Positions 25,918 to 57,730 of a stretch of 64,000 bases of DNA are shown one piece after another. Positions within the stretch are counted from its first letter, which is position 1, and each line of letters begins with the position of its first letter. The stretch is from a virus (Duplodnaviria; Heunggongvirae; Uroviricota; Caudoviricetes), in IMG/VR virus record IMGVR_UViG_3300044984_003074; one strand, written 5' to 3'. The notes beneath the pieces are model-generated. The model was not told where the DNA came from and did no database searches. It saw only the letters and a program-made list of their open reading frames with translations. The translations under genes and the position numbers were made by a program.

Positions 25918-25959
25918 GAACTATACTGATATGTCAATTTTTCTTACATATTTTTTCTG

Positions 25960-26044
25960 CGGAAAATGAGAGACTCGAACTCTCGCATCATTTTATCGAT
26001 GTACGGTTTAGCAAACCGCTGCATTACCACTCTGCCAACCTTCC
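25960..26044 (-). tRNA. tRNA-Ser (anticodon GCU), type II
   Basis: GGAAGGTTGGCAGAGTGG...loop TTGCTAA, long variable arm, T-arm GAGAGTTCGAGTCTCTC. Confidence 0.7.
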
Positions 26045-26049
26045 TTATA

Positions 26050-26394
26050 TTATATTAGGTGTAGTAAGATATATGACAATTTATATCCTGTAAAAGCGCC
26101 CAATGCGGATGGTATTGGGAATACAATTAATTTACCTAAATCAGTTACGTATTTTGGTCTATTTACAATTTTACCCATAAAAAAGTAATATATTAAATAA
26201 CCCATTAAAACCGCAATATCTGTACGTGTTGCAATAAAAACTACTAAAGTGGCCCCTAAGAACCCAAAAGTAAAATTATCCCTTACACCTTCCCAAACTT
26301 CTTTAGTTGATGCACTTTTATATTCTTTTACAATCTTTTTGAATTGGGCTTTATGCCCCTTTTTCTTTTTTTCTATTATTTCTGTTGTTTCCAT
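26050..26394 (-). CDS. hypothetical membrane protein
   Basis: 114 aa, two TM segments. Confidence 0.3.
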   Translation of the reverse strand: METTEIIEKKKKGHKAQFKKIVKEYKSASTKEVWEGVRDNFTFGFLGATLVVFIATRTDIAVLMGYLIYYFFMGKIVNRPKYVTDLGKLIVFPIPSALGAFTGYKLSYILLHLI

Positions 26395-26395
26395 G

Positions 26396-26470
26396 TTGGA
26401 ATAGATGGACTCGAACCATCGACTTTCACCGTATCAGGATGACACTCTAACCAACTGAGTTATATTCCAT
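26396..26470 (-). tRNA. tRNA-Ile (anticodon GAU)
   Basis: D-arm CTCAGTTGGTTAGAG, loop CTGATAC, T-arm GATGGTTCGAGTCCATC. Confidence 0.65.
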
Positions 26471-26561
26471 TATTATTTTTACAAAGATAGTTAATTTATC
26501 CCATAAAAAAAATCCCCCTGACTTTTAATCAGAGGGATTTAGTATTTAAATCTCTTCTATA

Positions 26562-27140
26562 TTAAAAGTATGTTTGTTCAAAGTATAATACTTGGAACTT
26601 ATCTTTACTATCAATTAAACTCAATGCATTAATTAAGTCGTTATACTCAACTACGGCACCTTTTTGAATTTTTCTAAATTTAGTTAAAACATCAAATGTT
26701 GTAATATCATCAGAAAATACTGTTTGTGAATCTTTGTTATATGCTTTCATTAATGCCAATTCCATTTCATAAGCTCCATTAATAATTTCTTCCAAACTAT
26801 TGAAAGTATGACTAATTTTTGCTGATGGGATTTCAGGGATAATATTGAAATCGGTCATATATTGTTGTAAAATCTCAGAATGACCTAATTCATCTTTTGC
26901 CTCATTTTCAAAAAACGCTGCCGCTTTTTTGTAGTTCATATCCGCACACCAGTTAGTTGCCGCTCTGTAATAATAATGTGCAGTATATTCGTCTTTGATT
27001 CTATCAGTTAAGATTTTAATTGTCTTATCTGATAACGAGTATAATTTAGGTGACTTTGTTAAACCTGGTTTGTTTTCCGCCTCATTCAAGTGCATCACTT
27101 TAAATAATTGTTCCTTTGTTAATGTTAATTTCTTTTCCAT
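26562..27140 (-). CDS. ferritin-like protein (start at internal Met; ORF-track N-terminus is read-through of tRNA-His)
   Basis: EYTAHYYYRAA ... NEAKDELGHSEIL ... ferritin ExxH/di-iron motifs; 5' part of listed ORF 26562..27287 overlaps tRNA gene. Confidence 0.5.
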   Translation of the reverse strand: MEKKLTLTKEQLFKVMHLNEAENKPGLTKSPKLYSLSDKTIKILTDRIKDEYTAHYYYRAATNWCADMNYKKAAAFFENEAKDELGHSEILQQYMTDFNIIPEIPSAKISHTFNSLEEIINGAYEMELALMKAYNKDSQTVFSDDITTFDVLTKFRKIQKGAVVEYNDLINALSLIDSKDKFQVLYFEQTYF

Positions 27141-27176
27141 ACTAATAAATAGTCGGTATAGATGAAAAATATTAGG

Positions 27177-27249
27177 GTGACTAACGGGAATCGAACCCGT
27201 GACAACTTGGACCACAACCAAGCGCTCTACCAACTGAGCTATAGCCACC
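27177..27249 (-). tRNA. tRNA-His (anticodon GUG)
   Basis: GGTGGCTATAGCTCAGTTGGTAGAGC, loop TTGTGGT, discriminator C. Confidence 0.75.
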
Positions 27250-27254
27250 ATATG

Positions 27255-27324
27255 TTGCGTGTTTGGGTTTCGAACCCAATTGACCATCCTTATGAGAGAT
27301 AGTTCTTTTCCTCTAAGTCACGCA
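27255..27324 (-). tRNA. tRNA with CAU anticodon (Met/fMet/Ile2), short atypical D-arm
   Basis: acceptor TGCGTGA/ACACGCA, AC stem TATCT/GGATG loop CTCATAA, T-arm TTGGGTTCGAAACCCAA. Confidence 0.45.
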
Positions 27325-27330
27325 GTTTAG

Positions 27331-27403
27331 AGGTTCTATTAGGATTCGAACCTAAACTCCGAATTCCGTAGATTCGTGTGCTAATCCGTTACACCATAAA
27401 ACC
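27331..27403 (-). tRNA. tRNA-Arg (anticodon ACG)
   Basis: AC stem CGAAT/ATTCG loop CTACGGA; T-arm TTAGGTTCGAATCCTAA. Confidence 0.7.
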
Positions 27404-27485
27404 CTAATTACCGATTATTGTCCCATTTAACAATTATCATCAAAACAATCCACAAAATTAAAAACCACATACTTTATTTATTTAG

Positions 27486-27556
27486 TTACCCGACCAAGAC
27501 TCGAACTTGGAACGACTGTACCAAAAACAGTTGTGTTACCATTACACCATCGGGCA
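27486..27556 (-). tRNA. tRNA-Gln (anticodon UUG)
   Basis: AC stem ACTGT/ACAGT loop TTTTGGT; T-arm CCAAGTTCGAGTCTTGG. Confidence 0.7.
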
Positions 27557-27562
27557 ATACTG

Positions 27563-27636
27563 TGGACCATCCAGGACTCGAACCTGGGACCTTCTCGTTA
27601 TGAGCGAGCTACTCTAACCGACTGAGTTAAAGGTCC
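27563..27636 (-). tRNA. tRNA-Met (anticodon CAU)
   Basis: D-arm CTCAGTCGGTTAGAG, loop CTCATAA, T-arm CCAGGTTCGAGTCCTGG. Confidence 0.65.
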
Positions 27637-27786
27637 AAAATTGACTACTACCTGACTCCTTTCGAACTTTGCAGGCTCGTATCATTCAATAATAGTAGTC
27701 CAAGGCGTTACGCACCCATCTGATAACTTTACTTCTCTTGAGTCCGGATAAGCGCTTACCAACTCAGGGGTTGTTTCCTTGTTTGT

Positions 27787-27866
27787 GGGAGTGGAGGGAT
27801 TCGAACCCCCAATGTCGTAGACCACAGATTTACAGTCTGCTAAGCGACCAATTGCTCAACACTCCC
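27787..27866 (-). tRNA. tRNA-Tyr (anticodon GUA), long variable arm
   Basis: GGGAGTGTTGAGCAATTGG..., loop CTGTAAA, T-arm TGGGGGTTCGAATCCCTCC. Confidence 0.7.
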
Positions 27867-28168
27867 AATTATAAAACAGACAATGAGGATTCTCCGATAT
27901 TTCAGTCTTAGGGGACTAGACGGGCATCATACCCGTGTTTACCCTCGGCGGTCTCTTGGTTTGGTTGATTACTCCGAACCTCACCCCTACACTACCACTG
28001 ACGTAAGTTATAGGTCTGTCTTAATTCTTTTAGGAAAACAGAAGATGGTTGCGTGGACATCTGTTTTTACGATTAGCGTTACTTAGGTGAATACCTCCCA
28101 ACTCCGATTGTACTAGCCGGCATTCACTCTCGAACTATTAGTACAATCATTCCCCAATCAACCTTTTG
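27867..28168 (-). ncRNA. GC-rich structured non-tRNA segment inside tRNA array (stable RNA or intron-like)
   Basis: ~300 nt at ~50% GC vs ~33% genome; multiple hairpins (CGGGCATCATACCCG; GTGAAT/ATTCAC); no convincing ORF (listed 67-aa ORF rejected). Confidence 0.35.
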
Positions 28169-28249
28169 CACGCTTGGAGGGATTCGAACCCCCACCAACG
28201 GTGTTGGAGACCGTGATGCTACCGTTGCACTACAAACGTATTTATTTAC
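28169..28249 (-). tRNA. tRNA-Trp (anticodon CCA)
   Basis: AC stem ACGGT/ACCGT loop CTCCAAC; T-arm GGGGGTTCGAATCCCTC. Confidence 0.7.
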
Positions 28250-28253
28250 TGCT

Positions 28254-28297
28254 CAAATTTAAGAGTATTTACTGCTCAAATTTAAGATTTTTGAGGT
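28254..28297. repeat. 2x tandem direct repeat of 21-23 bp (ATTTACTGCTCAAATTTAAGA) between tRNA-Trp and tRNA-Cys
   Basis: copies at 28254-28274 and 28277-28297. Confidence 0.8.
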
Positions 28298-28303
28298 CGG
28301 TAC

Positions 28304-28376
28304 AGGATTTGAACCTGTGTGAATAGTTTTGCAGACTACCGCCTAAGCCACTCGGCCAACCGACCCTATCTAATTT
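28304..28376 (-). tRNA. tRNA-Cys (anticodon GCA)
   Basis: GGTCGGTTGGCCGAGTGGCTTAGGC, loop CTGCAAA, T-arm ACAGGTTCAAATCCTGT. Confidence 0.7.
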
Positions 28377-28746
28377 AAAGAACTTCAGTTAGTATTCTCC
28401 ATTCTTTTAATGTGTTTCCTTCAAAGGTAACCTCAACCGGTTTCCCTTTTAATTTATCCACAGAGTCAACCTTAGCTTCCTTCAGTAAAGTCGAAACATA
28501 TCTCATAATCTCAGAATACCATCCATCCCTATCTTCTTCAGACCATTGGGTGTGTTCCGTCCATTTTATTTGTTCTGAATCCCAATTGGCTCTTGAATCA
28601 CCAACACCCCAACTTCCACCACTTAATGTGACGTGAAGACCTAACATTGCTCCTTGATATCCACCAAGACCAAAACTTACCGACTCAATTTTCCCTAATT
28701 TCTTTTCCATATTCTTTAATTTTAATATCCTTAAGGGCTTCCTCAA
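28375..28746 (-). CDS. hypothetical protein
   Basis: 123 aa ORF (start may be internal Met at ~28710). Confidence 0.3.
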   Translation of the reverse strand: MRKPLRILKLKNMEKKLGKIESVSFGLGGYQGAMLGLHVTLSGGSWGVGDSRANWDSEQIKWTEHTQWSEEDRDGWYSEIMRYVSTLLKEAKVDSVDKLKGKPVEVTFEGNTLKEWRILTEVL

Positions 28747-28845
28747 TTTGTTTTCCTAACCATTCTTTCCACTCGTCAAAGGTAAACTTTGAATTTGGAT
28801 TCTCCAAGAGAAAGTTTTTATATTGTGTTTCTAATGTTGCCATAA

Positions 28846-29445
28846 TTAATCTAAACTATTTGGGTAATATAATAATGTTGGGTTCTTCTTTTGGATATCA
28901 ATTTCAGGATATCTATCACTAAATGATTTGACATCAAATCGAGATGTAATTAAATGTCTACCATTTTTGGTAGGTATTACTTTTTCAACCTTAAATCCAA
29001 TTGGTCTAAGGTCTTTAATAAAATCGGCGACTTCATATAAAAAATCAGGGTCAGTAGTATCAATATCAACAATCCATCTTTTTTCTTTAGTCTTTATTTG
29101 ACCAACAACTGAATCAAATAACCCTTTTTGGTTTTGAACCCCATTCTTAATTCTTTCCGCCAAATTTGACAACATATCCAAAGAAACATCTTTATGATTT
29201 TGTTTTTGAATATGAATATAAGCTCTTGCTTTAAACATTTCACAAAGTTGTTTTACCTCATCGTACCTTCTTTCCAAATGGTCAATTGAATCAATACAAT
29301 ATGTTTTAATTGTTCTAACCGATTGATGATTATCTCTTTCATTTTCAGGTTGGTCTTTCTTACGTTTAAACACATACAACATATAGAAATCACCCTTTTC
29401 TTCAAAGTTTAACAACGGTTTTATTATCTCTAAATTATCTATCAT
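28846..29445 (-). CDS. hypothetical protein
   Basis: 199 aa ORF. Confidence 0.3.
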   Translation of the reverse strand: MIDNLEIIKPLLNFEEKGDFYMLYVFKRKKDQPENERDNHQSVRTIKTYCIDSIDHLERRYDEVKQLCEMFKARAYIHIQKQNHKDVSLDMLSNLAERIKNGVQNQKGLFDSVVGQIKTKEKRWIVDIDTTDPDFLYEVADFIKDLRPIGFKVEKVIPTKNGRHLITSRFDVKSFSDRYPEIDIQKKNPTLLYYPNSLD

Positions 29446-29998
29446 ATCTTTTTATTTTTTTATACTGTAAATTTGAAATAATTAGTTCCATCAAAATCAA
29501 ATTCCGCAATTACATCATTAGTTCCCCAAACAAACCTAATATAAGAACTAATGTTGGAATAAAGATTACCTGAATTTCCAGGAAATTGGATTATAATTTT
29601 TCTCAATTTTCCAACAACAATGTTATTAATTCCAGGTTCCCCATAAATGTTTTTAACTTCAGTGGTAATTCTAACCCCACTATAATAAATTGGGTTTTGA
29701 TGTTTTAATATTTTTCGGAAATAATCAATCTCTTTCATTTTAATATCCTATTTCTTTTTTAACTTCCCATTGTTTATCGATAGGAATTCTTTCAATTCTT
29801 TCAACAGGTACAAACCCGTCAAACCCTTTATCTTTAACATCCTCAAAATGTTCTATGGTATCCAATTGGAACCCGAACTTATATCGGATGTATTGGAACT
29901 TTTCTCCGTCCCAATATGCCATGTGGTTGTTCCTACAAAATCCATTGTACCAACCTTCAACCATTTCATTTTTTGGTATCATAATTTCTATTTTTTTG

Positions 29999-30072
29999 TG
30001 ACCCCTCCGAGACTCGAACTCGGGACTCCTTCATTAAAAGTGAAGTGCTCTAGCCAACTGAGCTAAGAGGTC
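29999..30072 (-). tRNA. tRNA-Lys (anticodon UUU)
   Basis: GACCTCTTAGCTCAGTTGGCTAGAGC, loop CTTTTAA, T-arm CCGAGTTCGAGTCTCGG. Confidence 0.75.
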
Positions 30073-30476
30073 TTTTTTTCGTTCAATCATTTCTGACTGT
30101 CCCCAATACCGAATTTCAGCGGCAACCCACTTACGTGAGGGGTTAGAACTTGTGTGTTAACTTACTCCTGTTAATGGTACACTAACCAACCGACTTAGAC
30201 TCAAGTAATCGGCTCAGGTCCCCATGGTTGTAAAACCACTTCTCATCGTTCGGGAGCAAACTAGTCGTATACTACTCGACTCGTGTAGTCGACACGGGAC
30301 TCGAACCCGCACAAGGCAACCTTACAACTCCATAGTCAACACAAGTGTCTGTGACTATTGGTCTTGGGGGTTTGGGACCTTCCCTCATTACACAGTCGAC
30401 TAACAACCCCACTTCACCAGGTTAATGGACTGGCTGCCATATGGGAGTGGGGGTTTCCCGTTAATTCGGGACTCCG
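30073..30476 (-). ncRNA. ~400-nt GC-rich structured segment including a 118-nt tRNA-like minihelix (8-bp acceptor around a GTCGAC palindrome + canonical T-arm, no canonical anticodon arm)
   Basis: minihelix approx 30286-30403: 5' TAGTCGAC ... GCGGGTTCGAGTCCCGT GTCGACTA 3'; remaining sequence forms many hairpins; no ORF support. Confidence 0.35.
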
Positions 30477-30549
30477 TGGTAACGGTCAGAATCGAACTGA
30501 CGACACCTTGTTCTTCAAACAAGTGCTCTACCGACTGAGCTACGTTACC
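30477..30549 (-). tRNA. tRNA-Phe (anticodon GAA)
   Basis: GGTAACGTAGCTCAGTCGGTAGAGC, loop TTGAAGA, T-arm GTCAGTTCGATTCTGAC. Confidence 0.75.
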
Positions 30550-30697
30550 AAATAAAGATAATGATGGAGTACCCGTCTCGCTCCAATCTTAACTGCTTTC
30601 CTGAGTTTTATGAGGCCTCGGCAGAAAGGGTGATGAACTATTGCTCCATTCGGAATTGTCGACATTCCATTGAATGGTTAGAACCATTATCTTAGTA

Positions 30698-30770
30698 GTT
30701 CCTGTAGGATTCGAACCTACGACTGCTTGCATGTAAGGCAAGAACTCTTCCACTGAGCTAAGGAACTGTA
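30698..30770 (-). tRNA. tRNA-Val (anticodon UAC)
   Basis: GTTCCTTAGCTCAGTGGAAGAGT, loop CTTACAT, T-arm GTAGGTTCGAATCCTAC. Confidence 0.7.
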
Positions 30771-30774
30771 TTGT

Positions 30775-30846
30775 AGCCCTGCCGGGAGTCGAACCCGACT
30801 TTCCAGGATGAAAACCTGGCGACCTAACCGATAGTCGACAGGGCCA
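30775..30846 (-). tRNA. tRNA-Glu (anticodon UUC)
   Basis: AC stem CCAGG/CCTGG loop TTTTCAT; T-arm TCGGGTTCGACTCCCGG. Confidence 0.65.
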
Positions 30847-30908
30847 TAAATAAATCTTTTACAAAGATACAATCAATATTTCAAAGAGCAAAAGATTATA
30901 GAATAAAA

Positions 30909-30940
30909 AAACCCCGAACCTTAATTAAAAGTTCGGGGTC
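30909..30940 (-). terminator. hairpin CCCCGAAC...GTTCGGGG with T-run on minus strand
   Basis: perfect 8-bp stem; T8 run on minus strand. Confidence 0.5.
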
Positions 30941-31130
30941 TGATATGATATAAATTTATATTATTATCCTACGATTACATCCGAACTACATAGCAGCATA
31001 CGCTCATACCAACAAACTATTTGTTGTTTACTAAAGACCATATGTTGTATTGTAGTTTTCATTGTTTCTATAATTATATCAAAGATAGTCAAAATCTTCA
31101 ATTTGTCAAATATTATTTTTTTTTGTACCC

Positions 31131-31203
31131 CAAGAGAGACTCGAACTCTCAAAATCTTGTATCTAAAACAAGCGTGTCTGCCATTCCACCATCGGGGCAT
31201 ATA
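31131..31203 (-). tRNA. tRNA with UAG anticodon (Leu-reading) but short type-I variable arm
   Basis: AC stem CTTGT/ACAAG loop TTTAGAT; T-arm GAGAGTTCGAGTCTCTC; D-stem weak. Confidence 0.45.
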
Positions 31204-31297
31204 TCACATCGTACAGGCATTCTGGTTCTCGCCAACAGAAATTCCATCTTACTTAGCCCACCCTGTGCGATAGGGGTACCTGAGGATATGATAATTG

Positions 31298-31371
31298 TGA
31301 TTCGGATAGGATTCGAACCTATGACCCCAAATTTAGAAGATTTGTGCTCTATCCAGCTGAGCTACCGAACC
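31298..31371 (-). tRNA. tRNA-Arg (anticodon UCU)
   Basis: GGTTCGGTAGCTCAGCTGGATAGAGC, loop CTTCTAA, T-arm ATAGGTTCGAATCCTAT. Confidence 0.75.
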
Positions 31372-31589
31372 ATTTTCCACCAATGAGATTATTTTGGTGT
31401 AGATATCTACAGTTTTCCTATTCAAAACCCATCGCGTCTTACCGCTTAAAAGTCAACCATATACTCGGAGGTCAAGATGGTTCTCTTGCCGTTTTTCCGA
31501 CGACTCCCTCTGTAAAACCGTTTGGAGTACCAGCTACATCATTGTTTAAGTAACGATGCCAAATCTATTGAGTATCTCTATCTCAATCG

Positions 31590-31669
31590 TAGTCAGGACA
31601 GGACTCGAACCTGTAATTCCGGTTAAACCCCTCAACGGGGCCGCGTCTATCCAATTCCGCCACCCGACT
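31590..31669 (-). tRNA. type-II (Leu/Ser-like) tRNA, anticodon arm non-canonical (reads UGA by alignment)
   Basis: D-arm TGGCGGAATTGGATAGACGC (Leu-like), T-arm ACAGGTTCGAGTCCTGT; anticodon region GCCCCGTTGAGGGG forms 5-nt loop. Confidence 0.45.
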
Positions 31670-31808
31670 ATTTTAAAATTCAATTGTGGACTTCCATTTC
31701 CACTCCGATAACTGTTGTCAATGTGATTTGTGCTATTGTACTTCTAGCTTAGACACATCGGGACGCACCATAAACATATGTCAGGGTCTTGTCTTTAATT
31801 GAATTTAG

Positions 31809-31908
31809 TAGTCAGGACAGGACTCGAACCTGTGAGGATATTTAAACTTCAGCAATGATAAAGTACCTTAAAGCGTCTACCAATTCCGCCACCTAACTAT
31901 TTTGAGGT
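31809..31908 (-). tRNA. paralogous type-II tRNA-like gene, 100 nt, aberrant/extended anticodon region (possible pseudo-tRNA or small intron)
   Basis: same acceptor/D/T arms as 31590-31669 but ~20 nt longer; no canonical 7-nt loop. Confidence 0.35.
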
Positions 31909-32253
31909 TGAGAACTCCTCGTGTTGTGCAAATATAGACATAAATCTTTTCAAAATTTATAATCTCACCCGACTATTTCATTCCTATCTCACAGGAACAA
32001 CACATTTTACTTCCACTGAGTTTTTCGGTTATACTTCCAAGTTTTATGTTCTCTGTATTTGTGAGAAAATTGTCCTTTTCTGTAATGAACACCCTCATCC
32101 CAATAAGAAGGGTATTCAAACTTTAACCAAATCAATCTGTAATCTTTTGAACAAGTTGCCTTCTTCAATTTCATTCTGTTTGTATTCACACTCATAATCT
32201 TGAGTCTGTTGTTTAGCAGACCTCAAAGATTATCAAATACCTTTTTCATAATT

Positions 32254-32334
32254 TTAAATTTTGTATCGAGAGAGGGAGTCGAACCCTCACGCCTTATGGC
32301 AAGGAGTCTTAAGCCCCTCGTGTCTACCATTTCA
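32254..32334 (-). tRNA. tRNA-Leu (anticodon UAA), type II
   Basis: AC stem AGGGG/CTCCT loop CTTAAGA, long variable arm, T-arm GAGGGTTCGACTCCCTC. Confidence 0.7.
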
Positions 32335-32534
32335 CCACCTCGATATTTCTTCTACAAAGATAGTAAAATCTTTGATATAACCATAAAAAAACCCCAAACT
32401 TTTCAGTTCAGGGTTAAGTCTCTATAAATAGAATGGCTCTGAACAAATTACCGCATAAGTCTTCTTAACAGACCTTGTCTATTAAGTAATAATGTATGTA
32501 ATAATATTGTTCTCATTGTTTTTATAAATATATC

Positions 32535-33251
32535 TTATTCTGTAAAACTTTCTTCATATAAAGTATTACTATCGTTTGATTCAATATTGTCAGTATGGTC
32601 TAATGTAACAATTTTATTATTAAAGTCAAATATAAATTGACCATCAGACCCTTCATTGTTTTCCCAACCACCAAAATTTGTTGAAAGTTGAGTGTAACAC
32701 CAATCTTCAATTCCCGCAGGTACCGCACTACCATTTTGGTCAAATCTATCTTCCAAATATCCTGAATCTCCAGACCCATTATATGTTACGGTTAAAATAC
32801 CATCATTTGGTATTTCAACATCGGAAAACTCGTTTCCTTCCCATCGTTTAAATTTTTCAATGTCTTCATCAGAATCGAACTCAATCGAACTTCCATCACC
32901 TCTTTCATAAAAAGACCACCATTTACTAAACACGATTTTTTTATCTTTTACATCAATATCAAACTCAACTCTTTGGTAATTAATCATATCCATATCAAGG
33001 TGCTCAAAATTGTTTTGATTATCAACATAGTTAACAATCTTTTGAAGTATTGGAATTAATCCTGATGGGATATCCGCTCTATAATTGTTTGAAAAATGGG
33101 TTATTTCATCCCAATCAATATCGTTGGGGTCAAATACTGAATAACTATCAATATCAAACTCAATATTACCATCATACATCCCTAATGAATTAAGATAATT
33201 GGTAACTCTTCGTAAATATTTTTTTTCTTCTGGTGTTAAAATTCCTTTCAT
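32535..33251 (-). CDS. hypothetical protein
   Basis: 238 aa ORF. Confidence 0.3.
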   Translation of the reverse strand: MKGILTPEEKKYLRRVTNYLNSLGMYDGNIEFDIDSYSVFDPNDIDWDEITHFSNNYRADIPSGLIPILQKIVNYVDNQNNFEHLDMDMINYQRVEFDIDVKDKKIVFSKWWSFYERGDGSSIEFDSDEDIEKFKRWEGNEFSDVEIPNDGILTVTYNGSGDSGYLEDRFDQNGSAVPAGIEDWCYTQLSTNFGGWENNEGSDGQFIFDFNNKIVTLDHTDNIESNDSNTLYEESFTE

Positions 33252-33267
33252 AAACTATAAATATCCT

Positions 33268-33615
33268 TTAATCATCTATTTTTAATGTTCTTAACATCCA
33301 TTGTGGTCGTTTATTCTCGGAAAGGTTATTAACCCACTCTTTGGCCGATGGGATATAGTTATTACAGTCTTCTTTTACATGTTGTTCACCAACATATCTT
33401 GTGTAAACTATTTTACCATCACTATTGGTGAATTCCGTACCAAATCTTTTTTCCATTTCAAAAATCCCTTCACTATGATGTCTAAACATTCTGTGGAGTG
33501 AGTCACCAAACCAAGATTTGGTTTCATCTAACCATTCGTGTAAATGGATATAATCTTCAGGTTTTCCACCAAATTTCTTAGCGGATGATTTTGCATGTAA
33601 ATTTGGATGTGCCAT
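33268..33615 (-). CDS. hypothetical protein
   Basis: 115 aa ORF. Confidence 0.3.
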   Translation of the reverse strand: MAHPNLHAKSSAKKFGGKPEDYIHLHEWLDETKSWFGDSLHRMFRHHSEGIFEMEKRFGTEFTNSDGKIVYTRYVGEQHVKEDCNNYIPSAKEWVNNLSENKRPQWMLRTLKIDD

Positions 33616-33628
33616 AGTTTTATTTTTG

Positions 33629-33703
33629 TGGAGCTAGTGAGAATCGAACTCACCTCAGAGACATTGCAAGTGTTTCTCGCCAAGCCTTGGAACATGTAAC
33701 CCC
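33629..33703 (-). tRNA. tRNA-Ala (anticodon UGC)
   Basis: acceptor GGGGTTA/TAGCTCC with G3:U70, loop CTTGCAA, T-arm GTGAGTTCGATTCTCAC. Confidence 0.55.
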
Positions 33704-33710
33704 TTATTTG

Positions 33711-33783
33711 AGCCTCCTGTCGGAATCGAACCAACGACATCAACATTACAAATGTTGCGCTCTACCTGCTGAGCTAAGGAGGC
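33711..33783 (-). tRNA. tRNA-Thr (anticodon UGU)
   Basis: GCCTCCTTAGCTCAGCAGGTAGAGC, loop TTTGTAA, T-arm GTTGGTTCGATTCCGAC. Confidence 0.75.
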
Positions 33784-33842
33784 GTTTGTGGGTATATGCT
33801 CATCACATATTCTTGGGTTCCCACACACCCCTTGAGCAGATA

Positions 33843-33914
33843 GACGGAATCGAACCGTCGTCTCCAGATTGGAAGTCTGGAGTAATAACCCCTATACGAT
33901 ATCTGCATTTGGCG
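33843..33914 (-). tRNA. tRNA-Gly (anticodon UCC)
   Basis: AC stem CCAGA/TCTGG loop CTTCCAA; T-arm GACGGTTCGATTCCGTC. Confidence 0.7.
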
Positions 33915-33917
33915 GTC

Positions 33918-33993
33918 CCGACGGGATTCGAACCCGTACCTCACACCGTGACAGGGTGGAATTGTAACCATTCAACCACGGGACCAAAATTTC
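33918..33993 (-). tRNA. tRNA-Asp (anticodon GUC), CCA encoded
   Basis: GGTCCCGTGGTTGAATGG, loop CTGTCAC, T-arm TACGGGTTCGAATCCCGT, 3' GCCA. Confidence 0.7.
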
Positions 33994-34107
33994 AATTCAA
34001 AGGTGACAATCCTATAACAATTGAATGAGAAAGAACCGTGTTTCTCGGGTAGTGACTTCCCGTATTCTGTCTTTCTGTTTTTTATGGGGAGTCTCAACCC
34101 AATCTTT

Positions 34108-34596
34108 TTAGTTAACTAATATGTCCTTATGTTCTTCGATTACTCGTTTTAAACTACTGACATATCTTTTGTCTTGTGCGTATATTTTACCAAGTAACGC
34201 AAGGTACTCTTTTTTTGTCAAATCATTCTTGTTTTTTAACATATAATTCTGCCATAAGGAGTAATCATACACACTAAACACCCAATCTTCATAACTTGAA
34301 TACCCACTTTTGGTTTGACCGTTTGCGGATGACTCTCGTTTTTTTGGTATTCTCATACCAAATAGATTGTTCGCTGATTTGAACAATTTGGAAGTAAATT
34401 GACCTGATTCTAATACCGCTTGTGCGAATACCACATCAGGAAATTTAATTCCGTGATTAATTATCTGCTCATACAAATTTTGTCTTGTGATACTATTTTC
34501 AATAGTTGTTTCACTTTGTAATTGCTTCTCTTGTGCTTTGATTGTTAATGTTCCTAACAATAACAATCCAGTCAATAAGAATGTTTTTAACTTCAT
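34108..34596 (-). CDS. secreted GH73-family N-acetylglucosaminidase (FlgJ-like) peptidoglycan hydrolase
   Basis: 162 aa; N-terminal signal peptide; VFAQAVLESGQFTSKLFKSANNLFGM GH73 motif. Confidence 0.6.
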   Translation of the reverse strand: MKLKTFLLTGLLLLGTLTIKAQEKQLQSETTIENSITRQNLYEQIINHGIKFPDVVFAQAVLESGQFTSKLFKSANNLFGMRIPKKRESSANGQTKSGYSSYEDWVFSVYDYSLWQNYMLKNKNDLTKKEYLALLGKIYAQDKRYVSSLKRVIEEHKDILVN

Positions 34597-34667
34597 TTCT
34601 TTCTTTTTGTCTGTTTATGCTTCAGGATTACTCCATCCACGATACCACAACATTGGAAATTTTCCAC

Positions 34668-35228
34668 CTACCCCACTTGTAATAATTCAACTAAACCGTC
34701 GTGTATTTCAGAATGACAATTAGAACATACTAATATACATTTGTCTACCTCGTCTTTTAGTTTTTCAAAACTAACACTTTTTCCTGAAATTGAAAAGTCT
34801 TTTTCTTCAGGATTGAGATGATGAAATTGTAAAGCTCTGTTACATTTTTTATATCCACATAATTCACATTCACCACCCTTATAGTCAATTAATTTTTGTT
34901 TTGTTCGTTTTCTCCATTCAATAACTGCTTCAGTTTTTGAAACTGTTTTATTTTTATTTGTTGTTACAACATATTTTAAAACAGTGTTAATTGCATGTCC
35001 TTTTAATTTTGCAATTTTTTTAACAGAACCAATTTCATCATAAAGTTTTTGTAATTCTAATTTTTGTTCATCTGTCAATCTATCACTATGACCACCCATT
35101 TTATTGAGTTTACAGTGATATGATACTGTTGAAATTGCACAATGTAATTCTTTACAAATTTCTTTATAGGTTTTACCCTGATTTCTTAATTCTATTATTT
35201 TTTCGAAGTATTTACTCATTATTAACAT
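34668..35228 (-). mobile_element. HNH homing endonuclease with N-terminal HTH domains
   Basis: 186 aa; C-terminal HHLNPEEKDF...CILVCSNCHSEIH HNH motif. Confidence 0.6.
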
Positions 35229-35269
35229 TATTAGTTAATAATAACTATCACAAATATTCGAAAAGTAAA

Positions 35270-35354
35270 GCTGACACGGTAGGATTCGAACCTACGTCGG
35301 ATTTTACTCACCAGATTAACAGTCTGGACCATTCGACCTCTATGGCAACATGTC
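35270..35354 (-). tRNA. tRNA-Asn-like (anticodon GUU) with unusually long variable region
   Basis: AC stem CCAGA/TCTGG loop CTGTTAA; T-arm GTAGGTTCGAATCCTAC; 15-nt variable. Confidence 0.5.
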
Positions 35355-35360
35355 AATAAT

Positions 35361-35433
35361 GTCGGGGTGGCAGAAATCGAATCTGCTCGATGTCCTGGTC
35401 CCAAACCAGGCGACTAACCTTTAGTCCACACCC
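35361..35433 (-). tRNA. tRNA-Pro (anticodon UGG)
   Basis: CGGGGTGTGGACTAAAGGTTAGTC, loop TTTGGGA, T-arm GCAGATTCGATTTCTGC. Confidence 0.75.
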
Positions 35434-35448
35434 CGTAATAAATAAAAA

Positions 35449-37068: not shown

Positions 37069-37749
37069 ATGAATATAGGCGAAGATTTTAAAAATTATTA
37101 TGTAAAACATTTAGGTAAACCATCTTTGGATTTACATAATTTTAATTCTCAAATTGAGAATTCGATGACTCCATACATTTTGGAAGAAAGAGAAATGAGA
37201 GTAACTCAAATGGATATCTTTTCAAGATTAATGAGAGACCGAATTTTATGGGTTGCTGGACCTGTTAATGACCACATGTCAACAATAGTCCAAGCTCAGT
37301 TAATGTTCTTAGATTCATCAGATAAATTGGACATTACGATGCATATCGACTCTCCTGGTGGAAGTGTTAAGTCAGGACTTTCAATGGTAGATGTTATGGA
37401 TTACATTTCTTGTGATATTAGAACAATTAACACAGGTATGGCGGCATCTATGGGGTCCGTATTGCTGGGGGCTGGAACTAAAGGTAAAAGAAGTTCATTG
37501 AGATTCTCAAAAACCATGTTACACCAATCTTCAGGTGGTGCAGGAGGTAATATCCAAGATGCTCGTATCAATATGAGGGAATGGGAAAAAACAAATAAAA
37601 TTCTTTTTGATTTGTTAGGTTCTTATTGTGGTAAAACTGCGGAACAAGTTACTTTGGATGCTACTCGTGATTTGTGGTTAACTGCGGATGAAGCACTTGA
37701 ATACGGGATTATTGATGAAGTTGTTACAACAAAAAAGAAGGGTGTTTAA
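37069..37749 (+). CDS. clpP: ATP-dependent Clp protease proteolytic subunit ClpP
   Basis: 226 aa; HIDSPGGSV, catalytic Ser in TINTGMAASMGSVLL, His in MLHQSSGGAGG; terminator overlaps stop. Confidence 0.8.
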   Translation: MNIGEDFKNYYVKHLGKPSLDLHNFNSQIENSMTPYILEEREMRVTQMDIFSRLMRDRILWVAGPVNDHMSTIVQAQLMFLDSSDKLDITMHIDSPGGSVKSGLSMVDVMDYISCDIRTINTGMAASMGSVLLGAGTKGKRSSLRFSKTMLHQSSGGAGGNIQDARINMREWEKTNKILFDLLGSYCGKTAEQVTLDATRDLWLTADEALEYGIIDEVVTTKKKGV

Positions 37750-57489: not shown

Positions 57490-57577
57490 GGAAAGATGGC
57501 AGAGTTGGCCGATTGCGTCAGTCTTGAAAACTGAAGACCTCGTAAGGGGTCCGTGGGTTCGAATCCTACTCTTTCCG
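57490..57577 (+). tRNA. tRNA-Ser (anticodon UGA), type II, plus strand, isolated from main array
   Basis: GGAAAGATGGCAGAGTTGGCCGATTGCG, loop CTTGAAA, long variable arm, T-arm GTGGGTTCGAATCCTAC. Confidence 0.75.
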
Positions 57578-57730
57578 CAAAATCAATAGTGCTGTACGCG
57601 ACAGAGACAAAAGACAGGAGTGAAAGAGCTGTCCCTATTGATTTAAAACAAAAATACCTCATAGAAATATGGGGTATTTTTTTTGACTAATAATTTTATT
57701 TAAATTATATTTTTAAAAAAATTAAAACCT

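What the first reader, a model, noticed from the sequence alone, without database searches (positions are those of the whole stretch)
25958..35433. Near-complete tRNA complement covering all 20 amino acids on one strand
Manual folding recovers about 25 minus-strand tRNAs. Anticodons found are GCU, GAU, GUG, CAU x2, ACG, UUG, GUA, CCA, GCA, UUU, GAA, UAC, UUC, UAG, UCU, UAA, UGC, UGU, UCC, GUC, GUU, UGG and two type-II paralogs. A plus-strand Ser-UGA tRNA sits at 57490-57577. Together they decode at least one codon for every amino acid. That is a large repertoire for a T4-like phage and implies strong codon-usage divergence from the host or translation-takeover.
Basis: seen in the sequence. Interest (0 to 1): 0.6.

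Follow-up and report, generated by a model that had tools for sequence, protein, structure and literature searches.

The report
Phage tRNA array with anticodon-less mimics
A large T4-like freshwater phage carries 24 real tRNA genes that cover all 20 amino acids, which is ordinary for big phages, but three extra "tRNAs" in the cluster have no anticodon and belong to a widespread phage family of tRNA look-alike RNAs that I could not find described anywhere I searched.

Summary
The observation largely holds. ARAGORN and Rfam confirm 22 minus-strand tRNAs (25959-35435) and Ser-UGA at 57490-57578. Shuffled windows give no calls. tRNA-Ala(UGC) at 33628-33703 appears only at a relaxed threshold, but it is conserved in relatives and has G3:U70. 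The claimed second CAU does not exist.

The 24 decoders give one tRNA per codon box. Only AUA, CGG and an initiator are uncovered. The phage is a distant T4 relative, probably infecting Bacteroidota. Large phage tRNA sets are already known.

The "two type-II paralogs" (31590-31669, 31809-31898) are not decoders, and a third element lies at 30286-30401. They keep a tRNA-Leu-type acceptor stem, D arm, T arm and A73. The anticodon and variable arms are replaced by unrelated inserts.

Their shared 24-mer has at least 120 exact hits in IMG/VR, 2 in 185,579 species genomes, and none in 50,697 GenBank phage records. I extracted 192 distinct elements (55-259 nt, about 157 insert types, up to 8 per locus). 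They always share the strand of neighbouring tRNAs and show strong stem covariation. Inserts are conserved while flanks are not.

Rfam 15 has no dedicated family for them, and the searchable literature does not describe them. The closest analogue is T4 RNAC/RNAD. Function is inferred: non-decoding, possibly leucine-accepting tRNA mimics.

The parts
35361..35435 (-). tRNA-Pro(UGG)
   Evidence: ARAGORN; Rfam 52.6 bits
35270..35355 (-). tRNA-Asn(GUU), aberrant: 86 nt with a ~15-nt unpaired variable region. It lies next to an HNH endonuclease gene.
   Evidence: ARAGORN; Rfam 46.2 bits; fold. Close relative L130 has a normal 73-nt Asn and no HNH gene.
34668..35228 (-). HNH homing-endonuclease-like ORF inside the array
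   Evidence: Pfam HTH_38/HNH and PHROG HNH endonuclease. This stretch is not aligned in close relative L130.
33910..33985 (-). tRNA-Asp(GUC), the only tRNA with an encoded CCA
33834..33906 (-). tRNA-Gly(UCC)
33710..33783 (-). tRNA-Thr(UGU)
33628..33703 (-). tRNA-Ala(UGC), structurally aberrant: C8 and a degenerate D arm (possibly a CCAA-GGC-TTGG mini-hairpin, by my reading). G3:U70 and A73 are present.
   Evidence: ARAGORN -ps90 only; not reported by Rfam at E<=1; conserved in 6 IMG/VR relatives, one of which repairs the stem mismatch
32390..32415 (-). intrinsic-terminator-like hairpin ending transcription unit 1
32355..32362 (-). TATCTTTG box (Bacteroidetes-type -7 element TAnnTTTG) 18 nt upstream of tRNA-Leu(UAA)
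   Evidence: the consensus is from memory
32263..32344 (-). tRNA-Leu(UAA), class II, 82 nt
31809..31898 (-). TLE-2: anticodon-less tRNA-Leu-like element, 90 nt. Acceptor AGUUAGG/CCUGACU, D arm GCGGAAUUGGUAGACGC, T arm ACAGG-UUCGAGU-CCUGU, A73.
   Evidence: Rfam tRNA 37.5 bits only in E-value mode; ARAGORN -ps90 calls 'tRNA-???(cttt)'; family model R1 70.2 bits
31590..31669 (-). TLE-1: anticodon-less tRNA-Leu-like element, 80 nt. The anticodon position holds a 6-bp hairpin with a 5-nt loop, GUUGA.
   Evidence: ARAGORN calls it 'Gln(ttg)' with G33; Rfam 35.6 bits; R1 77.1 bits; MFE fold. Orthologues carry GUCGA instead.
31297..31371 (-). tRNA-Arg(UCU)
31125..31198 (-). tRNA-Leu(UAG), 74 nt, with a Leu-type D arm but no long variable arm
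   Evidence: 16 of 44 phage tRNA-Leu genes in the related loci and the window are of this short type.
30909..30941 (-). terminator-like hairpin ending unit 2. A TATCTTTG box follows at 30862-30869.
30773..30845 (-). tRNA-Glu(UUC)
   Evidence: 93% identical to the tRNA-Glu of Flavobacterium phage immuto
30695..30767 (-). tRNA-Val(UAC)
30476..30549 (-). tRNA-Phe(GAA)
30286..30401 (-). TLE-3: third anticodon-less tRNA-like element, 116 nt. Acceptor AGUCGAC/GUCGACU, T arm GCGGG-UUCGAGU-CCCGU, A73, and a ~35-nt insertion in the D loop.
   Evidence: R1 30.5 bits, E 6e-6. Not called by ARAGORN or Rfam. Orthologues in L130 and L126. MFE z -2.0.
29998..30072 (-). tRNA-Lys(UUU)
28293..28365 (-). tRNA-Cys(GCA)
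28168..28239 (-). tRNA-Trp(CCA)
27785..27866 (-). tRNA-Tyr(GUA), class II
27562..27636 (-). The single CAU tRNA. G1-C72 means it is not an initiator. It is probably elongator Met, but Ile2 (lysidine) is not excluded.
   Evidence: Its orthologue occurs in a lineage that also has tRNA-Ile(UAU).
27485..27556 (-). tRNA-Gln(UUG)
27330..27403 (-). tRNA-Arg(ACG)
27175..27248 (-). tRNA-His(GUG)
26510..26540 (-). terminator-like hairpin ending unit 3. A TATCTTTG box follows at 26482-26489.
26395..26469 (-). tRNA-Ile(GAU)
25959..26044 (-). tRNA-Ser(GCU), class II
57490..57578 (+). tRNA-Ser(UGA), class II, outside the array. In close relative L130 it sits inside the array next to tRNA-His.

Best explanation
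SHOWN. Window 25959-35435 (minus strand) is the tRNA gene array of a distant T4-like phage, probably one that infects Bacteroidota. It holds 23 decoding tRNAs, and Ser-UGA lies elsewhere. There is one tRNA per codon box or half-box, nearly all with U34 or G34. It is therefore a minimal, almost self-sufficient decoding set for this 32% GC genome. It lacks only a reader for AUA, a reader for CGG, and an initiator. The array is split by four terminator-like hairpins. Three of these are followed by a TAnnTTTG box. Small ORFs and an HNH endonuclease gene are interspersed. CCA is not encoded, except in tRNA-Asp.

SHOWN. Three further genes in the array (TLE-1, TLE-2, TLE-3) are structured RNAs, not decoders. 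Each keeps the top half of a tRNA-Leu: a 7-bp acceptor stem, U8, a Leu-type D arm with G18G19, usually U before the T stem, a 5-bp T arm with a UUCGAGU loop, A73 and C74. The anticodon and variable arms are replaced by an unrelated insert. The three belong to a large phage-specific family.

INFERRED. The elements are co-transcribed with the tRNAs, cut out by host RNase P and 3'-end processing enzymes, and given a CCA end. This yields stable L-shaped or elbow-containing RNAs. The conserved positions coincide with the E. coli LeuRS identity set. tRNA-Leu lacking both the anticodon arm and the variable arm is still leucylated. So the elements are plausibly chargeable with leucine but cannot read codons.

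MOST LIKELY ROLE (low confidence, about 0.3). They are tRNA mimics used in the conflict over the tRNA pool. They may act as decoys or competitive inhibitors of host tRNA-binding defence enzymes. The hypervariable insert sits exactly where most anti-phage tRNases cut.
For: tRNA array:
- ARAGORN, Rfam and shuffled controls support the calls.
- Ala is conserved and its stem mismatch is repaired in relatives.
- Codon table: 81% of 16,084 codons are read by strict wobble. About 98% would be read if UNN anticodons read whole four-codon boxes (my arithmetic).
- Stop codons are TAA 58, TGA 9 and TAG 3, so the genetic code is standard.
- Relatives L130 and L126 carry the same array.

The TLE family is real and RNA-level:
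- It has 2 hits in 185,579 species genomes, both on tiny MAG contigs.
- It has no hit in 50,697 GenBank phage records.
- I extracted 192 distinct elements of 55-259 nt: A73 in 183, C74 in 190, U before the T stem in 151.
- 97 elements were found by D arm plus T loop only, without using acceptor pairing. Of these, 89 have 7/7 acceptor pairs and 93 have 5/5 T-stem pairs.
- On 38 distinct cores, 93.4% of cells pair against 82.6% when shuffled (0/500). 11 of 12 pairs show compensatory changes. Slid controls give 31-48%.
- TLEs share the strand of adjacent tRNAs in 139 of 139 cases, and of each other in 45 of 45 multi-copy loci.

Not decoders:
- ARAGORN of 131 elements, with scattered anticodons.
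- TLE-1 orthologues differ in the would-be anticodon (UUG versus UCG) and have G33.
- The shortest members (55-61 nt) have no anticodon arm at all.

The insert matters:
- There are about 157 insert types.
- In pairs from different loci that share a type, insert identity is 0.91 and scaffold identity 0.95, while the flanks are 0.54 and 0.56.

LeuRS logic:
- Review PMC9976931 lists A73, A15-U48, G18G19, A20a and the D/T-loop contacts as essential.
- 16 of 44 genuine tRNA-Leu genes in the related loci and the window also lack the variable arm.

Conflict context:
- The window encodes an Rnl1-type RNA ligase, an RNA-repair HAD domain and a tmRNA.
- Many anti-phage tRNases cut the anticodon arm (PMC13056530, PMC10264068, PMC12445682).
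Against: - There is no expression, processing or charging data. All steps after 'structured RNA on this strand' are inferred.
- The LeuRS identity elements are largely the same nucleotides that any tRNA needs in order to fold, so the coincidence is weaker than it looks. The rules come from E. coli, not from Bacteroidota.
- A1-U72, G2-C71 and U3-A70 are unlike the phages' own tRNA-Leu acceptors, which are mostly GCC....
- The decoy idea does not explain why insert sequences are conserved within types. It also does not explain why some members have no insert.
- Inserts are only weakly more structured than shuffles (mean z -0.54). They share no universal motif.
- TLE-1 and TLE-2 are absent from a 92-99% identical relative, so they are dispensable.
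- The scaffold's extreme invariance is partly due to ascertainment, because I seeded the search with an exact 24-mer.
- tRNA-Ala is not recognised by Rfam, and its MFE fold is not a cloverleaf.
Confidence: 0.65

Rival explanations
1. The TLEs are tRNA-scaffolded effector RNAs. The invariant tRNA-like frame only ensures processing out of tRNA operons and metabolic stability, which is the principle behind engineered 'tRNA scaffold' RNAs. The variable insert is the active part, acting as an aptamer, protein sponge or antisense RNA. Each insert type would have its own target.
For: - There are about 157 insert types on one scaffold, with up to 8 different inserts per locus.
- Inserts of one type are conserved (0.91) while the flanks are not (0.54).
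- Insertions occur at two permissive sites, the D loop and the anticodon position.
- Insert modules recur on different scaffolds, for example GGUCCAUAA..UUGGACGCGAGAAGU in L040, L045, L118 and L126.
Against: - Members of 55-61 nt have no insert.
- The three window elements have no antisense target in the 64-kb window beyond chance.
- Inserts are only weakly structured and share no motif.
- This does not explain why the acceptor-stem sequence itself and A73 are so strictly kept. RNase P does not read that sequence (general knowledge).
Confidence: 0.3
2. The TLEs are decaying pseudogenes of a phage tRNA-Leu lineage with no function of their own. Their ends are kept similar by gene conversion or recombination with functional tRNA genes.
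For: - They have a tRNA-Leu-like body.
- They are gained and lost between near-identical phages. The window carries an insertion of roughly 600 nt holding TLE-1 and TLE-2 that L130 lacks.
- A 5' remnant AGTCGGGTG lies at 31966-31974.
- There is no anticodon.
Against: - Both stems show compensatory and G.U-compatible changes.
- A73 and C74 are kept in 183 and 190 of 192 elements.
- The scaffold is near-invariant across about 118 contigs with unrelated flanks.
- Inserts are conserved within types.
- No functional tRNA with this acceptor stem was seen in these loci that could serve as a conversion donor. The ARAGORN 'Leu' calls on this scaffold have poor anticodon arms.
Confidence: 0.07
3. The odd genes are true decoders with unusual anticodon loops, as the first reader's 'type-II paralogs' implies. 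They might be frameshift or recoding suppressors with 8-nt loops, or a Gln tRNA on a Leu body.
For: ARAGORN reports Gln(UUG) for TLE-1 and a 4-base 'anticodon' cttt for TLE-2. Rfam tRNA scores are 35.6 and 37.5 bits.
Against: - TLE-1 has G33 instead of U33 and folds into a 5-nt loop.
- Its orthologues carry UCG in place of UUG with everything else unchanged.
- Across the family the would-be anticodons are scattered, and 94 of 131 elements are not called at all.
- Stop-codon usage and ORF lengths fit the standard code.
- A normal tRNA-Gln(UUG) is already present at 27485-27556.
Confidence: 0.03
4. The conserved sequence acts at the DNA level. It could be an attachment or recombination site, or the terminal inverted repeats of a small mobile cassette, rather than an RNA.
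For: - The acceptor halves form a 7-bp inverted repeat.
- The same element sits in unrelated contexts.
- The window/L130 indel begins exactly at the TLE-2 5' end, with AAAAT at both junctions.
Against: - Variants keep pairing through G.U, which matters only in RNA of this strand: AGUCGGG, AGUUAGG and GGUCAGG all pair with CCUGACU.
- D-stem and T-stem covariation is seen.
- Orientation relative to tRNA genes is strictly the same.
- The sequence is essentially absent from bacterial genomes, so it is not a host tRNA att site.
- No linked integrase or other protein family is conserved next to it.
Confidence: 0.05
5. For the tRNA set itself, the tRNAs are there for codon compensation, supplying codons that are common in the phage and rare in the host.
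For: The anticodons match the A/U-ending codons that dominate in this 32% GC phage. This is the classical explanation for phage tRNAs (PMC10264068 introduction).
Against: - The set covers essentially every codon box rather than a biased subset.
- Likely hosts (Flavobacteriia) are also AT-rich (memory).
- The most obviously phage-enriched rare codon, AUA (26% of Ile), has no tRNA in the window.
- RNA-repair genes and a tmRNA point to protecting translation capacity in general.
Confidence: 0.25

Closest known systems
Large tRNA gene clusters of big lytic phages (T5 with about 24 tRNAs, KVP40, Shigella phage Sf14 with 26 tRNAs for 19 amino acids, huge phages)
   Same: Many tRNAs lie on one strand, interspersed with small ORFs and homing endonuclease genes. 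There are tRNAs for nearly all amino acids. A tmRNA and RNA-repair genes lie nearby.
   Different: Nothing essential differs. Here the set is a strict one-per-box minimal set. Several members are structurally odd: a 74-nt tRNA-Leu without a variable arm, an 86-nt tRNA-Asn, and a tRNA-Ala with an aberrant D arm.
Phage T4 RNAC and RNAD ('species 1 and 2' stable RNAs; NC_000866 70908-71171)
   Same: They are small non-decoding RNAs encoded inside the tRNA cluster on the tRNA strand. RNAC ends in a T arm (CCGGG-UUCGAAU-CCCGG) followed by an acceptor-like strand. Their roles are still unknown (PMC3014915, PMC9697503).
   Different: There is no sequence homology: model R1 scores RNAC at 12.6 bits, E 0.04. 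By my reading, the T4 RNAC acceptor pairing is imperfect. No Leu-type D arm is evident, and T4 has one copy of each rather than a scaffold with many inserts.
Minimal tRNA-Leu substrates of E. coli LeuRS (Larkin et al. 2002, as summarised in PMC9976931)
   Same: The architecture matches: acceptor stem, D arm, T arm and A73 are kept, and the anticodon arm and long variable arm are removed. Such RNAs are still leucylated, provided A73 and the D/T-loop contacts are intact.
   Different: Those are laboratory constructs. Here the same design occurs naturally with variable inserts, and charging is untested.
tRNA-like domain of tmRNA, and aminoacylatable tRNA-like structures of plant RNA viruses
   Same: They mimic the tRNA top half, with the anticodon arm replaced by other RNA. 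They are chargeable without decoding.
   Different: tmRNA has G3:U70 alanine identity and a tag reading frame. The viral structures are 3' ends of RNA genomes built with pseudoknots. TLEs are free-standing small genes of DNA phages with U3-A70 and A73.
Bacterial Y RNA YrlA (RF02553) and engineered 'tRNA scaffold' RNAs
   Same: A tRNA-like module is attached to another RNA part. The scaffold idea gives a rationale for stability and processing.
   Different: In YrlA the tRNA-like module is internal and the RNA ends form the Ro-binding stem (memory). Rfam YrlA gave only a sub-threshold hit on ordinary tRNAs in L068 (34.9 against 69 bits). No Ro/Rsr gene was seen.

Membership tests
Canonical tRNA (Rfam RF00005), applied to the 23 ARAGORN-default genes | Cloverleaf scoring above the Rfam gathering threshold, with a 7-nt anticodon loop | tested here: met
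   35.6-72.3 bits against a threshold of 29; ARAGORN structures. One of the 23, at 31590-31669, is met only formally (see below).
Canonical tRNA, applied to the Ala(UGC) candidate at 33628-33703 | Detected by a covariance model or ARAGORN at default settings | tested here: not met
   Called only at ARAGORN -ps90. No Rfam hit at E<=1.
tRNA-Ala, applied to the candidate at 33628-33703 | G3:U70 in the acceptor stem, A73, a UGC anticodon in a 7-nt loop with U33, and conservation in relatives | tested here: met
   Sequence. Six relatives: 2 of 76 differences in the distant lineage, and the A.C stem mismatch becomes A-U.
Decoding tRNA, applied to TLE-1, TLE-2 and TLE-3 | A 7-nt anticodon loop with U33 and an anticodon conserved among orthologues | tested here: not met
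   TLE-1 has G33 and a 5-nt loop, and its orthologues read UUG or UCG. TLE-2 has no canonical arm. TLE-3 is not called at all. Family-wide, 94 of 131 elements are uncalled and the rest have scattered anticodons.
tRNA top half (acceptor/T minihelix plus D-arm elbow), applied to the TLE family | 7-bp acceptor stem, 5-bp T stem, UUCRANU T loop, U8 and G18G19, with covariation | tested here: met
Bacterial tRNA-Leu (class II), applied to the TLE family | A73 discriminator and a Leu-type D arm (3-bp stem, A14, A15, G18G19, A20a) | tested here: met
   A73 in 183 of 192 elements. [quoted passage not shown]
Bacterial tRNA-Leu (class II), applied to the TLE family | NAG or NAA anticodon and a long, structured variable arm | tested here: not met
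Bacterial tRNA-Leu, applied to the TLE family | Aminoacylation by LeuRS | not testable with these tools
   Needs an in vitro charging assay or an acid gel
T4 RNAC/RNAD | Sequence or profile similarity to T4 rnaC or rnaD | tested here: not met
   R1 scores rnaC at 12.6 bits, E 0.04, over the T-arm region only. rnaD has no hit.
T4 RNAC/RNAD | A non-decoding small RNA gene inside the tRNA cluster, on the same strand, with a tRNA-like 3' domain | tested here: met
Host tRNA-derived att site | The same sequence present as a tRNA gene in bacterial genomes | tested here: not met
   2 hits in 185,579 species genomes, both on MAG contigs of 613 and 4,112 nt
T4-like phage (gp20 portal, gp17 terminase, gp21 protease module) | Homologues of the T4 head and packaging proteins | tested here: met
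   PHROG portal 4e-64 and terminase large subunit 6e-39. tblastn finds 25-40% identity to T4-type phages. Peptidase_S77 5e-23. The major capsid and tail genes were not checked.
tmRNA, applied to 21623-22018 (+) | tRNA-like ends with G3:U70 and CCA, and an Rfam score at or above the gathering threshold | tested here: met
   47.9 bits against 47. Ends are GGGGAUG...CAUCUCCACCA.
tmRNA, applied to 21623-22018 (+) | A recognisable resume codon and tag peptide ending in a degradation signal; detection by ARAGORN | tested here: inconclusive
   The middle aligns poorly. ARAGORN -m finds nothing even at -ps80. No canonical ..ALAA tag was evident by eye.

The most novel reading that the evidence does not exclude
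The anticodon-less elements are a new class of phage non-coding RNA. They are free-standing mimics derived from tRNA-Leu and chargeable by LeuRS. Their invariant top half recruits tRNA-handling proteins. Their hypervariable insert occupies the site where anti-phage tRNases (PrrC-, PARIS-, retron-, Schlafen- and OLD-type) cut. The insert diversifies in an arms race. Arrays of up to eight would then form a programmable decoy or inhibitor repertoire. The same logic might explain the role of T4 RNAC and RNAD, which has been unknown for about 50 years.
Probability: 0.2. Interest if true: 0.85.

Novelty: new variant of a known kind. Interest (0 to 1): 0.6.

Why it matters
The tRNA complement itself adds one more example to a known pattern. 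Big phages bring a near-complete decoding set, here together with a tmRNA and RNA-repair enzymes.

The added value lies in the three genes that automated callers either mislabel as tRNA-Gln or miss. They reveal a phage-specific family that is abundant in IMG/VR contigs, many from freshwater metagenomes to judge by related MAG and sample names. Its members keep exactly the part of tRNA-Leu that synthetases and processing enzymes read. They discard the part that reads codons.

If these RNAs are expressed and charged, they would be the first natural free-standing 'minimal tRNA-Leu' molecules. They would give a testable handle on what non-decoding tRNA-like RNAs in phage tRNA clusters are for, a question open since T4 RNAC and RNAD were found.

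There is also a practical point. They inflate and distort phage tRNA counts. ARAGORN assigns them scattered anticodons, including apparent suppressor or 4-base anticodons that could be mistaken for recoding.

Tried and rejected
- **Second CAU tRNA.** Searched with ARAGORN at -ps90 and at -ps80 with introns, and with Rfam at E<=1. Nothing was found.
- **Conserved partner protein next to the TLEs.** I clustered all ORFs within 4 kb on either side in 122 contexts. The best cluster occurs in only 8 loci, so there is no linked enzyme.
- **Host tRNA or att-site origin.** The genome-contig scan gave 2 hits, both trivial.
- **Presence in cultured or deposited phages.** blastn against 50,697 records found only ordinary tRNA-Leu D arms. 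Flavobacterium phage immuto has no TLE in its tRNA region.
- **Homology to T4 rnaC or rnaD.** Not supported.
- **Antisense targets of the window inserts inside the window.** The longest complementary matches are 10-12 nt, which equals the shuffled expectation.
- **Shared motif in the inserts.** Only weak enrichment of D-loop-like TGGTA/GGTGAG words was seen.
- **Strong insert structure.** Mean MFE z is -0.54.
- **Literature.** Searches by sequence string and by keywords found no description. The 2023 IMG/VR structured-RNA survey mentions anonymous tRNA-like candidates that ARAGORN calls only sometimes. Those could overlap this family, but its supplements are not held.
- **Alternative genetic code.** Rejected on stop-codon usage and ORF lengths.
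- **Identity of the CAU tRNA (Met versus lysidine-Ile).** Not resolved. C4-G69 and C5-G68 resemble the E. coli TilS determinants (memory). However, the orthologue co-occurs with tRNA-Ile(UAU) in a related lineage.

Full report

ARAGORN at default settings finds 22 tRNA genes on the minus strand between 25959 and 35435. It also finds tRNA-Ser(UGA) at 57490-57578 on the plus strand. Rfam's tRNA model scores all 23 above its gathering threshold, at 35.6-72.3 bits. Five block-shuffled copies of the window gave no ARAGORN calls.

Two items differ from that list:
- **tRNA-Ala(UGC), 33628-33703.** It is called only when the ARAGORN threshold is lowered to 90%, and Rfam does not report it at E<=1.
  - It has G3:U70, A73, a good T arm and a CUUGCAA loop, and it lies 6 nt downstream of tRNA-Thr.
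  - A scan of IMG/VR with its 3' 26-mer found six relatives.
  - In the more distant lineage (roughly 73-85% identity around it), the neighbouring tRNA-Thr has changed at many positions. The Ala gene differs at only 2 of 76 positions, and one change converts the window's A.C mismatch in the anticodon stem into A-U.
  - I accept it as a real but structurally aberrant tRNA-Ala, with C8 and a degenerate D arm.
- **A second CAU tRNA.** It could not be found by any setting.

The count is therefore 24 decoders: 23 on the minus strand and one on the plus strand.

**2. What the array is**

*The phage.*
- The window encodes a T4 gp20-type portal, a gp17-type large terminase and a gp21-type prohead protease.
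- The nearest relatives by protein, at 25-40% identity, are a 484-kb uncultured phage, Flavobacterium phage immuto, Microcystis phage Mel-JY01 and T4-like cyanophages.
- No GenBank phage is similar at the DNA level, apart from a tRNA-Glu that is 93% identical to that of the Flavobacterium phage.

*Transcription units.*
- The array is cut by four terminator-like hairpins on the minus strand, at 35476-35448, 32415-32390, 30941-30909 and 26540-26510.
- The last three of these hairpins are followed by TATCTTTG, placed 18-24 nt before the first tRNA of the next unit.
- TAnnTTTG is the Bacteroidetes -7 promoter box (memory). Together with the relatives, this points to a Bacteroidota host.

*Other content.*
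- Small ORFs lie between the tRNAs: a ferritin-like protein, DUF6915, DUF6878, a glucosaminidase and an HNH endonuclease.
- Only tRNA-Asp encodes CCA. All other tRNAs have N73-C74 followed by A or T, so CCA addition by a host or phage enzyme is required (inference).

*Decoding capacity.*
- The window is 32% GC.
- In 70 long ORFs the stop codons are TAA 58, TGA 9 and TAG 3, which indicates the standard code.
- The 24 anticodons give exactly one tRNA per codon box or half-box, almost all with U34 or G34.
- By strict wobble they read 81% of 16,084 codons. If UNN anticodons read whole four-codon boxes, about 98% are read (my arithmetic).
- Left uncovered are AUA (298 codons, 26% of Ile), CGG (4 codons) and an initiator.

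*Identity of the CAU tRNA.*
- It has G1-C72, so it is not an initiator.
- Its orthologue in a related lineage co-occurs with tRNA-Ile(UAU), so it is probably elongator Met.
- A lysidine-Ile identity is not excluded.

*Relatives.* Related uncultured phages carry the same array with 22-24 tRNAs. The nearest cultured relative shows 4 annotated tRNAs in the 18-kb stretch I inspected.

*Verdict on the tRNA set.* Large tRNA sets in big phages are well known, so this part is ordinary. A one-per-box set fits translational self-sufficiency better than supplementation of a few rare codons. The window also holds an Rnl1-type RNA ligase (48327-49409), an RNA-repair HAD domain (22358-23059) and a tmRNA. 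The host's codon usage could not be examined.

**3. The 'two type-II paralogs' are something else**

*The three elements.*
- TLE-1 (31590-31669) is called tRNA-Gln(UUG) by ARAGORN. It has G33 rather than U33, and it folds with a 6-bp stem and a 5-nt loop at the anticodon position.
- TLE-2 (31809-31898) is found only at relaxed thresholds, with a 4-base 'anticodon'.
- Both share AGU(C/U)(G/A)GG-UG-GCGGAAUUGG(A)UAGACGC at the 5' end and ACAGGUUCGAGUCCUGUCCUGACUA at the 3' end. That corresponds to an acceptor stem, a tRNA-Leu-type D arm, a T arm and A73.
- A covariance model built from family members found a third element at 30286-30401. Its acceptor stem (AGUCGAC/GUCGACU) and T stem carry compensatory changes, and its D loop holds a 35-nt insertion.

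*A large, phage-specific family.*
They come from about 118 contigs of up to 373 kb.
- It has 2 matches in one genome for each of 185,579 bacterial and archaeal species, both on tiny MAG contigs.
- It has no match in 50,697 GenBank phage records.
- From the fetched loci I extracted 192 distinct elements of 55-259 nt.
- The 5' and 3' parts are nearly invariant. The middle, where the anticodon and variable arms belong, ranges from 3 nt to more than 150 nt and is unrelated between types.
- Some members also have hairpins inserted in the D loop.
- The shortest members have no anticodon arm at all.
- ARAGORN calls only 37 of 131 elements, with scattered anticodons.

*Evidence for an RNA-level constraint.*
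- I re-detected elements using only the D arm and the nearest T loop, not acceptor pairing. Of 97 such elements, 89 have 7/7 acceptor pairs and 93 have 5/5 T-stem pairs.
- On 38 distinct cores, 93.4% of cells pair, against 82.6% in shuffles (0 of 500 reach the observed value). 11 of 12 pairs show compensatory changes. Slid controls pair at 31-48%.
- 5' variants such as AGUCGGG, AGUUAGG and GGUCAGG pair with the unchanged 3' strand through G.U. This is meaningful only in RNA of this strand.
- The elements lie on the same strand as every canonical tRNA within 500 nt (139 of 139). They are co-oriented with each other in all 45 multi-copy loci, with up to 8 per locus.
- No protein family is consistently adjacent.

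*The insert is not neutral filler.*
- There are about 157 insert types.
- In pairs of elements from different loci that share a type, insert identity is 0.91 and scaffold identity 0.95. The 120-nt flanks are 0.54 and 0.56 identical.
- Inserts are only weakly structured and lack a common motif.
- The window's inserts have no antisense target in the window.

*The elements are accessory.*
- A 92-99% identical relative (L130) has the same tRNA array and TLE-3 but lacks TLE-1 and TLE-2.
- The window carries an insertion of roughly 600 nt that starts exactly at the TLE-2 5' end.

**4. How they most likely work**

Shown: they are conserved, structured, strand-specific elements embedded in tRNA operons, and they cannot decode.

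Inferred: they are excised and CCA-tailed like tRNAs.

*The LeuRS argument.*
- The conserved positions are A73, A14, A15 with U before the T stem, G18G19, A20a and the D/T-loop partners.
- These are the elements reported as essential for E. coli LeuRS.
- The anticodon arm and long variable arm are dispensable, and truncated tRNA-Leu lacking both is still charged (PMC9976931, citing Larkin 2002).
- 16 of 44 genuine tRNA-Leu genes in the related loci and the window lack the variable arm, including the window's 74-nt Leu(UAG).
- A leucine-accepting, non-decoding mimic is therefore plausible, but it is untested.

*Purpose.* I rank two readings about equally:
- a decoy or inhibitor of tRNA-binding host factors, notably anti-phage tRNases that cut the anticodon arm (PMC13056530, PMC10264068, PMC12445682);
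- a tRNA scaffold that carries diverse effector inserts.

Pseudogenes, unusual decoders and DNA-level sites are each contradicted by specific results (see the rival explanations).

**5. Comparison with what is known**

- The tRNA array is a member of a known kind.
- For the TLEs, the closest natural analogue is T4 RNAC/RNAD. These are non-decoding RNAs in the tRNA cluster with a tRNA-like 3' domain and unknown roles. There is no sequence relationship to them.
- Rfam 15 has no family for the TLEs beyond weak tRNA hits.
- I found no description in the searchable literature. An anonymous entry in a 2023 IMG/VR survey cannot be excluded.

**6. Verdict**

The interesting content is the three anticodon-less elements and the family behind them. 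They look like a new variant of phage tRNA-like RNA, and their function is open.

Noticed in passing
window 21623-22018 (+): A phage-encoded tmRNA. Rfam RF00023 scores it at 47.9 bits against a gathering threshold of 47. Its ends are convincing tRNA-like (GGGGAUG...CAUCUCCACCA, with G3:U70 and an encoded CCA). The middle aligns poorly, no canonical ALAA-type tag is evident, and ARAGORN does not call it even at 80% threshold.
   Followed up: partly
window 30550-30698 (-), between tRNA-Val and tRNA-Phe: A ~140-nt conserved structured-RNA candidate. It is 75-83% identical in L022, L050, L064, L076, L085, L096 and L104. Where I checked (L064, L096, L104, L022) it sits just upstream of a tRNA-like element. 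RNAalifold predicts 36 pairs, 14 with compensatory changes. Near-invariant motifs are AUGUCGACAAUCC and GUUAAGAUUGGAGCGAGAnGGGUACUCCA. No Rfam family matches.
   Followed up: partly
window 31372-31589 (-), downstream of TLE-1: A ~217-nt non-coding stretch travels with TLE-1 in L005, L111, L116 and L097 (83-91% identity). It has long invariant blocks and several predicted hairpins. With five sequences there is too little covariation to judge.
   Followed up: partly
window 31125-31198 (-) and 15 tRNA-Leu genes in related IMG/VR loci: Class-I-like tRNA-Leu genes of 74-77 nt, with a Leu-type D arm but no long variable arm. They make up 16 of 44 tRNA-Leu genes in the related loci and the window, with covarying stems. 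This is unusual, because bacterial-type tRNA-Leu is class II.
   Followed up: partly
window 34668-35355 (-): The 86-nt aberrant tRNA-Asn and the adjacent HNH endonuclease gene fall in a stretch that does not align to the 92-99% identical relative L130. L130 has an unrelated normal 73-nt tRNA-Asn there. This suggests replacement of a tRNA gene together with a homing endonuclease.
   Followed up: partly
window 31966-31974 (-): AGTCGGGTG, the 5' end of a tRNA-like element, stands alone upstream of the TLE-2 promoter region in both the window and L130. It looks like a remnant of an earlier element lost by recombination.
   Followed up: no
window 48327-49409 (+), 22358-23059 (+), 44066-44719 (+), 62056-62748 (+), 14943-15674 (-): Candidate RNA-repair and RNA-modification genes: a T4 Rnl1-type RNA ligase, a 'Swiss Army Knife' RNA-repair HAD domain next to the tmRNA, two calcineurin-like phosphoesterases, and a weak nucleotidyltransferase hit.
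   Followed up: no
window 51245-52669 (+): The thymidylate synthase ORF is 474 aa. The Pfam domain is split into two stretches over residues 9-393, so it carries a large insertion (possibly an intein or an inserted domain). The homologue in Flavobacterium phage immuto is similarly long, spanning 1,272 nt.
   Followed up: no
window 30078-30307 (-), between TLE-3 and tRNA-Lys: Another intergenic stretch conserved at 82-85% in L056 and L106. Not analysed.
   Followed up: no
window 16817-18829 (+) and 37069-37749 (+): The phage encodes an ATP-dependent protease (PHROG 4871, E 1e-237) and a ClpP protease.
   Followed up: no
L057 10001-10072 (-); L064 4650-4711 (+): In related IMG/VR loci, a tRNA with a CUA anticodon (amber-suppressor type, called 'Pyl' by ARAGORN) sits among tRNA-like elements in L057. 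A freshwater-1 RNA (RF02979, 83.7 bits) occurs in L064.
   Followed up: no
L031, L050, L051, L084 (12529-12649), L093 (3144-3235): Some family members carry a second T-arm-like hairpin (for example GGGGUUCGAAUCCC) inside the insert, giving a 'double elbow' architecture.
   Followed up: no
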